From: a virus
Lineage: Duplodnaviria > Heunggongvirae > Uroviricota > Caudoviricetes
Virus record (IMG/VR): IMGVR_UViG_3300045988_152564
Strand: one strand, 5' to 3'
Length of the DNA stretch: 55,949 nucleotides
The position numbers were made by a program, and so were the translations under genes. Positions 21,515 through 22,300 of the stretch are shown one piece after another. How positions within the stretch are numbered: the stretch's first letter is position 1; each line of letters begins with the position of its first letter. A model generated the notes under the pieces. That model did no database searches and was not told the DNA's origin. It worked only from the letters and a program-made list of their open reading frames with translations.

Positions 21515-22300
21515 CGCATTCACCGCAACGGAAAGAGCATTCTTGGTGGACCTGTAGATTGGGATATGAACCCGTTACAGGAGAATGCTCTTACCTGTTA
21601 CGTGCTCCGTTTCGTGGAGCTAACGGCGGGTGATCGGGCCGCACCAGGCTGGACTTATTTCAGCGTTATGCTCATGCCAGAGAATCAAACTGTGATGGTC
21701 GGTGCTGAACTCCGACACAGGGTTGTAGCAAGCCCCGCAAAGCGCGCACTACTGTAGTTGCGGCACATCAGCCTGTGCATTCACCACAATGTTGAGAACA
21801 CTGGTTGTCACGCTGCAACGCAACATTTATTCGTAGATTGGGATATGACCCCGTTACGCCAGTGTTCTCAACGTTGTAGTGCCGGTTACGGTTCCGGCCA
21901 GGCCTCTTCCTCAACGGGGTGTTCTCCATACGGACTACCGTTTATTGGTCGTTCCTGCGGTTTATGTTGTGAAGCCAGATGCTTATCTTCTGGTTGCTTC
22001 AAAGAGCTGCACTTCATCACAACGGTAAGAGCACTCGATGCATTTAAGCCAAGCCCCATAAGGGAGAATGCCCTTACCTGTTGTGTTGTGATGACCGGTG
22101 CTGATCTCCGGCTTGCGGTTATTTCAGACTCTCACGGGCGTTTAATTGCCCCGCCGAACAGCTCTTTTCCGCAATAGCTGCAATGTCTTTCGCGCATCAG
22201 CCTGCGCATTCATCACAACGGTAAGGGTACTTCGTAGGGATTCGAACCCTCTGCCAAGCTCGGCGATCTCCGACGTCGCAAAATACCCTTACCTGTTGTG
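21515..22300 (-). repeat. array of four related long-stem hairpin units with tRNA-like T-arm remnants
   Basis: Stems at 21534-43/21583-92, 21790-803/21858-71 (14 bp perfect), 22034-41/22081-88, 22220-29/22284-93; shared flanks catcacaacgg ... cccttacctgttgtg; loops contain gggatatga(a/c)ccc or gggattcgaaccc. Confidence 0.6.

What the first reader, a model, noticed from the sequence alone, without database searches (positions are those of the whole stretch)
21515..22300. Array of four long-stem hairpin units with tRNA-like remnants directly downstream of the tRNA genes
Between the tRNA-Thr 3' end (22302) and the upl/plp genes there are four related units, each a 10-14-bp stem (one is a perfect 14-bp inverted repeat, GTTGAGAACACTGG / CCAGTGTTCTCAAC) around a ~50-nt loop. 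The units share flanks (catcacaacgg upstream, cccttacctgttgtg downstream), and a fifth partial copy of the downstream flank lies at 22718-22735. On the minus strand the loops contain T-arm-like sequences (GGGTTCGAATCCC, GGGTTCATATCCC) and one unit has a perfect 7-bp acceptor-like helix (GGUAAGG/CCUUACC), but none folds into a canonical cloverleaf. They would be co-transcribed with tRNA-Asn/Thr. Possibilities: decayed tRNA genes, processed small RNAs or tRNA-like decoys, or MITE-like insertions. The two plus-strand ORFs predicted here are probably not coding.
Basis: seen in the sequence. Interest (0 to 1): 0.7.

Follow-up and report, generated by a model that had tools for sequence, protein, structure and literature searches.

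The report
Stem-enclosed RNA modules punctuating phage tRNA operon
The hairpins after the P1 tRNA genes are real copies of a widespread, unannotated family of folded RNA modules in the early transcripts of enterobacterial temperate phages, and they most likely act as RNase III cutting sites that separate tRNAs and small RNAs from one long non-coding transcript.

Summary
There are five complete hairpins, not four plus a fragment. All five lie on the minus strand in the C1-repressed ban operon leader of a P1-like phage-plasmid.

Units D and E belong to a three-way-junction RNA family found in lambdoid prophages of Enterobacterales. One lambdoid copy, with its flanks, matches 2492 of 5426 complete E. 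coli genomes, and no listed hit carries an RNA annotation. The family is absent from Rfam 15. Covariation is strong: 95% of cells paired, against 43-56% in slid controls.

Units A-C share the same stem scaffold around different interiors, which are often T-arm-like. In P1-like and Klebsiella phage-plasmids a unit follows the last tRNA of a run within 0-3 nt.

They are not tRNAs, transposon-like mobile repeats (MITEs), integron attC sites or put RNAs. The plus-strand ORFs, which are P1's annotated upl and plp, look non-coding.

Best mechanism (about 0.5): RNase III processing stems. In E. coli K-12 Qin, both published RNase III-dependent DicF ends map, by my calculation, inside homologous long stems. 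Whether the interiors act in trans as tRNA mimics is open.

The parts
23110..23137 (.). Bivalent C1 operator overlapping the Pban promoter, the start of the transcript that carries everything below.
   Evidence: ATTACACTAATAAATTT and AAATTTATTAGAGCAAT read. This is the position of Obanab/Pban in P1 and P7.
22921..23007 (-). dicF-like region: a hairpin at 23007-22975 homologous to the one upstream of dicF in Qin, followed by an sRNA-like 3' end with an intrinsic terminator (22950-22921).
   Evidence: P1 annotates a "dicF-like region" here. Terminator scan. Comparison with K-12 Qin.
22653..22745 (-). Unit A: a complete long-stem hairpin upstream of the tRNAs, with a 43-nt interior.
   Evidence: Inverted repeat I2. 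Fold -48.8 kcal/mol, z = -6.2. Model R1 gives 22.8 bits, E 8e-4.
22380..22455 (-). tRNA-Asn (GUU).
   Evidence: ARAGORN and Rfam.
22302..22377 (-). tRNA-Thr (UGU). Its 3' end is 1 nt from unit B.
   Evidence: Adjacency rule.
22214..22300 (-). Unit B: a 16-bp stem with a bulged A. The interior has a T-arm-like hairpin, AGGGUUCGAAUCCCU.
   Evidence: I11; -42.3 kcal/mol, z = -5.1. The same unit occurs in many P1-like contigs.
22086..22213 (-). Spacer SB, closed by GUUGUGAUGA/UCAUCACAAC. It is about 97% identical to a module in the PL leaders of lambdoid and Stx phages.
   Evidence: Inverted repeat I17. Phage hits H22-H34. mEp460 sequence.
22018..22085 (-). Unit C: a 19-bp stem with a 29-nt interior. 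Absent from reference P1.
   Evidence: z = -4.8. Model R2 gives 49.2 bits. Module map.
21882..22017 (-). Spacer SC. Its first 70 nt are shared with Klebsiella SSU5-like phage-plasmids.
   Evidence: (H69-H79).
21782..21881 (-). Unit D: three-way junction with P1 of 23 bp, P2 carrying GGG-GUCAUAU-CCC followed by AAUC, and a P3 hairpin.
   Evidence: Inverted repeat I1. Fold -49.2 kcal/mol. R1 gives 29.4 bits, E 1.2e-5.
21603..21781 (-). Spacer SD.
   Evidence: Module map.
21524..21602 (-). Unit E: P1 stem, P2 carrying GGG-UUCAUAU-CCC followed by AAUC, and no P3.
   Evidence: Inverted repeat I4.. R1 gives 29.6 bits, E 1.1e-5. Colinear with the Qin hairpin.
21390..21527 (-). STnc100/PasD-like domain closed by UGCGGUG/CACCGCA and ending in a U-tract. 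It is the homologue of the dicF-dicB leader of Qin.
   Evidence: Rfam RF02076 gives 37.8 bits, below its gathering score of 47. Comparison with Qin.
21428..22177 (+). Two plus-strand ORFs equivalent to P1's annotated upl and plp. Probably not genes.

Best explanation
The units are RNA-level elements of the minus-strand ban-operon leader. This leader is a long untranslated transcript under C1 repressor control. It carries a DicF-like sRNA, tRNA-Asn, tRNA-Thr and an STnc100-like RNA ahead of the protein genes, tRNA-Ile2 and ban.

Each unit is a 19-25 bp double-stranded stem with a conserved base (CACAAC.../...GUUGUG) that encloses a variable interior. I propose that host RNase III cuts these stems. 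Cutting would (i) separate the non-coding RNAs from each other, (ii) give the last tRNA of a run a short 3' trailer that exonucleases can trim, and (iii) release the enclosed interior as a small RNA capped by a residual stem.

What is shown: the fold, the strand, the covariation, the distribution, the adjacency to tRNAs, and the homology to the Qin dicBF leader.
What is inferred: RNase III cleavage itself, drawn from published Qin data mapped by transcript length, and the stability or function of the released interiors.
For: (1) Structure and strand.
- All five units fold, z = -4.8 to -6.3, and better on the minus strand.
- The whole array folds with each unit as a separate hairpin, z = -7.0.

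(2) Selection on the fold.
- In 83 distinct lambdoid-type copies, 95.3% of cells are paired, against 43-56% when the 3' partner is slid.
- 22 pairs change on both sides, against 6-10 in the slid controls.
- None of 500 shuffles reaches any of the observed values, and U.G pairs are frequent.
- Sense-strand copies score about 110 bits and antisense about 37 bits.

(3) Position.
- Units sit between non-coding RNA genes.
- The last tRNA of a run is followed by a unit within 0-3 nt. This holds for tRNA-Thr in 21 of 21 distinct contexts and for tRNA-Ser(UGA) in every context listed, in P1-like and in unrelated Klebsiella phage-plasmids.
- In lambdoid prophages the unit starts at the U-tract of the DicF-like terminator.

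(4) Experimental anchor in a homologue.
- K-12 Qin has a diverged unit at L125:2173-2258, colinear with unit E.
- Qin also has a 28-bp stem that starts at the DicF terminator U-tract and encloses the STnc100-like dicB leader.
- Published work shows that RNase III makes the 5' end of a 190-nt DicF species (bioRxiv 10.1101/2023.04.14.536235).
- It also makes the 3' end of a 72-nt DicF species (PMC5069750).
- From those lengths and the annotated dicF coordinates, the two ends fall at about L125:2246 and 2454. These are inside the 3' arm of the Qin unit and the 5' arm of the 28-bp stem.

(5) Stem length of 19-25 bp fits RNase III substrates (established knowledge).
Against: - No cleavage data exist for P1 or for the lambdoid copies.
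- My mapping of the Qin ends is by transcript length only, so it is good to a few nucleotides at best.
- RNase III alone does not explain why the P2 hairpin (GGG / CYCAUNN / CCC + AAUC) is so conserved.
- It also does not explain why interiors so often contain T-arm-like hairpins.
- In SJ46 a D/E recombinant has non-complementary arms, so a unit can be lost without obvious harm.
- B and C score at noise with the three-way-junction model.
- RNase E or RNase P could do the cutting instead.
Confidence: 0.5

Rival explanations
1. The enclosed interiors are the functional part. They would be small stable RNAs that mimic pieces of tRNA (an initiator-like anticodon arm, T-arms) and act in trans. For example, they could act as decoys or competitors for tRNA-binding enzymes or tRNA-cleaving toxins and defence nucleases. 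The stems would then only be the expression and processing scaffold. This is compatible with the best explanation.
For: - The lambdoid P2 hairpin contains CGGGCUCAUAACCC, identical to 14 nt of the E. coli initiator tRNA anticodon arm.
- Units D and E keep the GGG/CCC stem and the CAU in a 7-nt loop.
- Unit B and many other interiors carry GGUUCGAWUCC T-arm-like hairpins.
- P2 and P3 show covariation of their own.
- The elements lie in immediate-early operons next to phage tRNA genes.
Against: - When the loop is not forced by the search pattern it varies: CUCAUUC, CCCAUCA, CCCACCA, CUCCUAA. The initiator identity is therefore not universal.
- No interior passes any tRNA or Y-RNA model.
- No partner protein has been identified.
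- Interiors of the P1-type scaffold are extremely diverse, 24-96 nt.
Confidence: 0.2
2. Neutral remnants: decayed tRNA genes left by duplication and recombination in a tRNA array, with no function of their own.
For: T-arm-like and anticodon-arm-like pieces. Position in tRNA arrays. Units are gained, lost and hybridised among relatives.
Against: - No cloverleaf, and no tRNA call down to 80% of ARAGORN's thresholds. No RF00005 hit at E <= 10.
- The same non-tRNA fold is kept by compensatory changes across at least 10 genera of Enterobacterales.
- Long perfect stems are not expected of decaying tRNA genes.
Confidence: 0.08
3. DNA-level elements: miniature transposons (MITEs) or attC-like single-strand recombination sites that move tRNA or RNA cassettes.
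For: Conserved outer ends CACAAC...GTTGTG resemble the AAC...GTT cores of attC. One bulged base is present in several units. The interior between conserved arms is variable. Content is modular among relatives.
Against: - No target-site duplications (read).
- The RYYYAAC/GTTRRRY consensus is not met.
- P1, SSU5-like and lambdoid phages share no obvious recombinase.
- The stem base in lambdoid copies is made of the terminator U-tract pairing with GGAGAAA through U.G pairs, which makes sense only as RNA.
- The indels have repeat-to-repeat boundaries typical of homologous recombination.
Confidence: 0.07
4. Cis-acting RNA that modifies RNA polymerase or blocks Rho (put-like processive antitermination), so that the long untranslated leader and its internal terminators are read through to ban or to the early-left genes.
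For: - The lambdoid copies lie in PL leaders about 620 nt long with no N-like ORF.
- The P1 leader contains internal terminators.
- The downstream genes differ between phages (YfdP-like, RdgC-like, HD nucleotidase). That points to a general leader function.
Against: - The unit lies downstream of the DicF-like terminator, not upstream of it.
- The family model finds nothing in HK022, and the fold differs from the two-hairpin put RNA (PMC9378689).
- Only one copy per lambdoid locus was seen, and in mEp460 none on the PR side.
Confidence: 0.08
5. The region encodes the proteins Upl and Plp on the plus strand, as annotated in P1.
For: ORFs of 109 and 139 aa exist. They are annotated in P1 and RCS47.
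Against: - No Pfam family.
- The Plp C-terminus changes with a 196-nt indel, which is not a multiple of 3.
- The P1 plp ORF runs into the tRNA-Thr gene.
- Relatives delete or swap modules freely.
- The sequence is explained by conserved RNA structure on the other strand.
Confidence: 0.03

Closest known systems
RNase III / RNase E processing of the dicBF operon leader of the Qin prophage (DicF maturation)
   Same: The flanking modules are homologous: the hairpin upstream of dicF, a DicF-like terminator, and the STnc100-like dicB leader. Qin contains a diverged unit and a 28-bp stem that begins at the terminator U-tract. The published RNase III-dependent ends map inside these stems.
   Different: Qin has one diverged unit, no tRNAs and no array. 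The unit family, its three-way junction and its link to tRNA genes were not described in the papers I could read.
RNase III sites of phage early transcripts (T7 early region, lambda N-leader) and the processing stalks of rRNA operons
   Same: Long stems formed by sequences flanking a functional RNA or lying between cistrons. They are cut to separate products of one transcript (established knowledge).
   Different: Here the stems share a conserved base sequence. They enclose small, variable, tRNA-like interiors and recur as a repeated array next to tRNA genes.
Bacterial Y RNA-like RNAs (YrlA, RF02553)
   Same: A long stem formed by the two ends, enclosing a module with tRNA-like features.
   Different: The Rfam YrlA model hits only the genuine tRNA genes, not the units. 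The interiors are too small for a tRNA-like domain. Whether an rsr gene lies nearby was not checked.
HK022 put RNA
   Same: A protein-independent structured RNA in the early leaders of a lambdoid phage that lacks N.
   Different: put is a V-shaped pair of hairpins without an enclosing stem (PMC9378689). The family model finds nothing in HK022.
STnc100 / PasD prophage sRNAs (RF02076)
   Same: The last module of the array (21527-21390) matches part of STnc100. Both are prophage-borne (bioRxiv 10.64898/2026.05.13.724894).
   Different: The match is below the gathering score, covers only model positions 31-147, and concerns the terminal module, not the hairpin units.
Integron attC sites and MITEs
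   Same: Imperfect palindromes with conserved ends, a variable centre and an extrahelical base.
   Different: No consensus core, no duplications and no associated recombinase. The strand-specific U.G pairing and the use of a terminator U-tract point to RNA.

Membership tests
tRNA (RF00005 / ARAGORN) | Cloverleaf with acceptor, D, anticodon and T arms that scores above threshold. | tested here: not met
   ARAGORN finds only Met/Ile2, Thr and Asn. It makes no call on any unit or on other interiors down to 80% of default thresholds. RF00005 has no hit on the units at E <= 10.
Any Rfam 15 family | Score at or above the family's gathering threshold. | tested here: not met
   for the window, for the mEp460 copy. 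Only STnc100 appears, at 37.8 bits against 47, on the terminal module.
Three-way-junction prophage RNA family defined here (model R1) | P1 long stem, P2 with GGG/CCC hairpin and 7-nt CYCAUNN loop followed by AAUC, and P3 hairpin, on the transcribed strand. | tested here: met
   Units E and D score 29.6 and 29.4 bits (E about 1e-5) with a model trained only on lambdoid copies. Unit E lacks P3. Units A, B and C share only the stem (22.8, 14.6 and 14.5 bits).
P1-type stem scaffold (CACAAC(A)GGUAAGRGCA...UGCUCUUACCGUUGUG) | Conserved stem sequence enclosing a variable interior. | tested here: met
   Repeat families D1, D3 and D4. 45 distinct units with 24-96 nt interiors in IMG/VR. Unit C scores 49.2 bits with R2. 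R2 misses units with large loops.
RNase III substrate | About 20 bp or more of double-stranded RNA. | tested here: met
   Predicted stems of 19-25 bp.
RNase III substrate | rnc-dependent cleavage inside the stem. | not testable with these tools
   Only indirect evidence: published RNase III-dependent DicF ends, mapped by length onto the homologous Qin stems.
HK022 put antiterminator RNA | Two adjacent hairpins in a V shape downstream of PL and PR, with sequence related to putL/putR. | tested here: not met
   No R1 hit in the HK022 early region (best 14.4 bits, E 0.11). The architecture differs.
YrlA / Y RNA-like | Match to RF02553: a Ro-binding stem plus a tRNA-like domain. | tested here: not met
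   RF02553 hits only 22318-22435, which overlaps the real tRNAs (25.6 bits against 69).
Integron attC | RYYYAAC / GTTRRRY cores. | tested here: not met
   GCACAAC / GTTGTGA match 6 of 7 and 5 of 7 positions. Other units are worse (read).
Integron attC | A nearby intI integrase and ORF cassettes. | not tested
   No systematic search for intI was made. The spacers are 126-181 nt, too short for gene cassettes.
MITE | Terminal inverted repeats flanked by a target-site duplication. | tested here: not met
   The flanks of units B-E differ (for example CCAG against ATGA). The arms covary instead of keeping one transposase-binding sequence.
dicBF-type prophage early-leader mosaic | Homology of the flanking non-coding modules to the Qin and lambdoid PL leaders. 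| tested here: met
   (H22-H34).

The most novel reading that the evidence does not exclude
The stems are a common expression scaffold for a varied set of small tRNA-piece mimics. These include an initiator-like anticodon arm in the D/E/lambdoid type and T-arm-like hairpins in others. Temperate phages would make them immediately after derepression to occupy or distract host tRNA-recognising factors, such as tRNA-cleaving toxins and defence nucleases, modification enzymes, or the ribosomal P site. That would be an RNA-based counterpart to carrying spare tRNA genes.
Probability: 0.12. Interest if true: 0.85.

Novelty: new variant of a known kind. Interest (0 to 1): 0.6.

Why it matters
A lambdoid copy of the element, with its flanks, is found in 2492 of 5426 complete E. 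coli genomes, and none of the hits listed carries an RNA annotation. In reference P1 the region is annotated as two proteins, Upl and Plp, that probably do not exist.

Recognising the units as RNA modules:
- corrects the annotation;
- explains how phage tRNAs and DicF-type sRNAs could be cut out of long repressor-controlled leaders;
- shows that the non-coding leaders of P1, SSU5-like phage-plasmids and lambdoid prophages are built from one shared set of shuffled modules;
- gives a testable entry point to ask whether phages export tRNA-piece mimics.

Tried and rejected
- phi80 M3 RNA. I suspected the interiors might correspond to this old RNase P substrate. It is annotated as the oop homologue and lies elsewhere.
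- boxA/nut reading. The CGCUCUUUUUAC upstream of the lambdoid units is just the terminator tail. The GCUCUU is not conserved (CGCCC, CGUCC, GCAAU variants).
- N-like ORF in the mEp460 PL leader: none convincing.
- Whole-genome pattern scan. ACGGGYYCATNNCCCAATC was too short for 596 Gb. Most hits outside Enterobacterales were chance, and I estimate a few hundred chance hits for a pattern of this length. I sorted them afterwards with R1.
- RNAalifold on a plain MAFFT alignment missed the long stem because the arms were misaligned. I supplied the structure by hand instead.
- Model R2 (arms joined by an artificial GAAA loop) penalises large loops. It found only unit C, part of unit E, and a second unit in mEp460. 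It could not test the Qin hairpin.
- K-12 CPS-53 upstream of yfdP has no unit.
- Literature. Searches for the motif sequences found nothing. The P1 genome paper and Faubladier and Bouche 1994 are not held. Altuvia 2018 has no supplement held with site coordinates.

Full report
CONTEXT. The window is a P1-like phage-plasmid. It carries C4 RNA, sok, dmt and three tRNA genes. The region of the finding matches phages vB_EcoM-813R1 and RCS47 at 99.8-100% identity, and the P1 records at 98-100% apart from one module indel. The transcribed strand is the minus strand. In RNA order the region reads:
- the bivalent C1 operator and Pban promoter (23110-23137);
- a "dicF-like" hairpin and an sRNA-like terminator (23007-22921);
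- unit A, then tRNA-Asn and tRNA-Thr;
- units B, C, D and E with their spacers;
- an STnc100-like terminal domain (21527-21390);
- a small membrane protein, an SPFH lipoprotein, tRNA-Ile2(CAU) and ban.
In reference P1 the names upl and plp belong to the plus-strand ORFs inside the hairpin region.

OBSERVATION. Five complete hairpins are present. Stems are 19-23 bp because the "shared flanks" pair with each other. Interiors are 29-54 nt. Each unit folds far better than shuffles (z = -4.8 to -6.3) and better as minus-strand than as plus-strand RNA. In a fold of the whole 921-nt array, each unit forms its own hairpin (z = -7.0). ARAGORN calls no tRNA in any unit down to 80% of its thresholds. At 70% it makes one spurious call on the opposite strand of unit D. 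No Rfam family reaches its threshold.

A LARGE FAMILY. The motif ACGGGNUCAUAWCCCAAUC, shared by units D and E, occurs in at least 120 IMG/VR contigs. Most of the copies recovered are lambdoid-type, many on contigs of about 40 kb. Around the motif the same architecture recurs:
- a 20-25 bp stem, P1;
- a branch P2, ending in a GGG/CCC hairpin with a 7-nt loop and followed by AAUC;
- a variable hairpin, P3.

I built covariance model R1 from lambdoid copies only. In the window it recovers units E, D and A as the three best hits, with B and C at noise level. Sense-strand copies score about 110 bits and antisense about 37 bits.

On 83 distinct sequences, 95.3% of cells are paired, against 43-56% when the 3' partner is slid. 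Twenty-two pairs change on both sides, against 6-10 in the slid controls, and U.G pairs are frequent. That alignment was fitted to the model, so the counts lean towards it, but the margin is large.

A search anchored on the stem instead of the loop shows that the loop varies (CUCAUAA, CUCAUUC, CCCAUCA and others) and that the GGG/CCC stem can covary to GUG/CAC. The commonest version, CGGGCUCAUAACCC, is identical to 14 nt of the E. coli initiator tRNA anticodon arm.

One lambdoid copy, with its flanks, matches 2492 of 5426 complete E. coli genomes, and none of the listed hits has an RNA annotation. Convincing members (60 bits or more) are confined to Enterobacterales.

SCAFFOLD WITH VARIABLE INTERIOR, TIED TO tRNAs. 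A scan for the 3' arm of units B and C gave 45 distinct units. In them the stem CACAAC(A)GGUAAGRGCA.../...UGCUCUUACCGUUGUG encloses unrelated interiors of 24-96 nt, and many interiors have GGUUCGAWUCC hairpins. None of the five such interiors I tested is a tRNA by ARAGORN.

In P1-like contigs and in an unrelated Klebsiella SSU5-like phage-plasmid, the last tRNA of each run is followed within 0-3 nt by a unit. This holds for tRNA-Thr in 21 of 21 distinct contexts, for tRNA-Ser(UGA) in every context listed, and for tRNA-Asn when it is last.

Relatives differ by whole modules:
- P1 lacks spacer SB and unit C.
- P7 and Ro157 have unit C instead of unit B.
- D6 adds tRNA-Ser and another unit.
- Ro157 adds tRNA-Tyr.
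- SJ46 has a D/E hybrid that recombined in the shared 25-nt motif.
The boundaries are repeat-to-repeat, as expected from homologous recombination. There are no target-site duplications.

LAMBDOID CONTEXT. In mEp460-type prophages the early-left leader is about 620 nt long and has no convincing ORF. In order it contains:
- a segment homologous to the P1 trnI-ban leader;
- a P1-type unit;
- a module about 97% identical to window spacer SB;
- a DicF-like sRNA with its terminator;
- the three-way-junction unit, whose P1 begins with the terminator U-tract paired to GGAGAAA;
- AACUAAC, then a small covarying hairpin with a (U/G)GCAG loop;
- one of several unrelated first genes.
The leaders of P1, SSU5-like and lambdoid phages are therefore mosaics of one set of modules.

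MECHANISM. E. coli K-12 Qin carries the same kind of leader. It has a diverged unit at L125:2173-2258, colinear with unit E. It also has a 28-bp stem that starts at the DicF terminator U-tract and encloses the STnc100-like dicB leader.

Published experiments show two RNase III-dependent DicF ends: the 5' end of a 190-nt species (bioRxiv 10.1101/2023.04.14.536235) and the 3' end of a 72-nt species (PMC5069750). From the annotated dicF coordinates, these ends fall at about L125:2246 and 2454. That places them inside the 3' arm of the Qin unit and the 5' arm of the 28-bp stem. The mapping is by length only and is my inference.

Together with the stem lengths and the positions between non-coding RNA genes, this makes RNase III processing the best-supported mechanism. 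The cuts would separate the sRNAs and tRNAs, give the last tRNA a trimmable trailer, and release the interiors capped by a residual stem. I put about 0.85 on "selected RNA structure on the minus strand" and about 0.5 on "RNase III processing site".

RIVALS.
- Trans-acting tRNA-piece mimics (0.2). Compatible with the above and would explain the conserved P2.
- Neutral tRNA remnants (0.08).
- MITE or attC-like DNA elements (0.07).
- put-like antitermination (0.08). There is no hit in HK022, and the unit lies downstream of the terminator.
- Protein-coding upl/plp (0.03). No Pfam match, and the C-terminus is not conserved.

NOVELTY. RNase III stems in phage early transcripts and in the dicBF operon are known. 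The following were absent from Rfam 15, from the genome annotations I examined and from the papers I could search:
- the unit family itself;
- its three-way junction with an initiator-like hairpin;
- its conserved scaffold around variable tRNA-like interiors;
- its rule-like position after phage tRNA genes;
- its spread across P1-like, SSU5-like and lambdoid elements.
I rate it a new variant of a known kind, with interest 0.6.

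Noticed in passing
window 20225-20030 (minus strand, downstream of tRNA-Ile2 at 20301-20226): The leader between tRNA-Ile2(CAU) and ban begins with AUUUGGUUGUAACACGGCG. It is colinear for about 200 nt with the first part of the mEp460 PL leader. So another non-coding module is shared between P1 and lambdoid prophages.
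   Followed up: partly
window 20329-21373: This phage-plasmid has a small membrane protein (78 aa) and an SPFH/Band-7 lipoprotein (275 aa) where reference P1 has tciA-tciB-tciC. Phage Ro157c2YLVW has the same arrangement.
   Followed up: partly
L003 (mEp460) about 2300-2345, and equivalents in many loci: A small hairpin with a conserved (U/G)GCAG loop and covarying stem follows the three-way-junction unit after AACUAAC, just upstream of the first early-left gene. It resembles a boxB-type protein-binding hairpin, but no N-like gene was found.
   Followed up: partly
L125 2436-2600 (E. coli K-12 Qin, dicF-dicB intergenic region): The STnc100-like dicB leader is enclosed by a predicted 28-bp stem. 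Its 5' arm starts at the DicF terminator U-tract and its 3' arm ends just before the dicB ribosome-binding region. This may couple DicF 3'-end formation to dicB expression.
   Followed up: partly
L235 (SJ46) 1724-1804; L076: Some P1 relatives carry a unit D / unit E hybrid that recombined inside the shared 25-nt motif. Its arms are no longer complementary, so it is a natural broken-stem mutant.
   Followed up: partly
L236 (Ro157c2YLVW), L002 (D6), L358 (Klebsiella plasmid): The tRNA content of these arrays varies. tRNA-Tyr(GUA) is inserted between Asn and Thr in one. tRNA-Ser(UGA) with its own unit is present in the other two.
   Followed up: no
L296 (contig labelled Chryseobacterium sp. 18061): A full-scoring enterobacterial-type unit (84.7 bits) sits in a genome labelled Chryseobacterium. 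This may be contamination or mislabelling.
   Followed up: no
window 39561-39735 and 44380-44586: sok antitoxin RNA, C4 antisense RNA and its a1b1 targets are found at Rfam gathering scores, as expected for a P1-type element.
   Followed up: no
window 21440-21452 (minus strand, inside the STnc100-like module): GGUGGAUAACC resembles a DnaA box (TTATCCACA) on the DNA. This may be coincidence.
   Followed up: no
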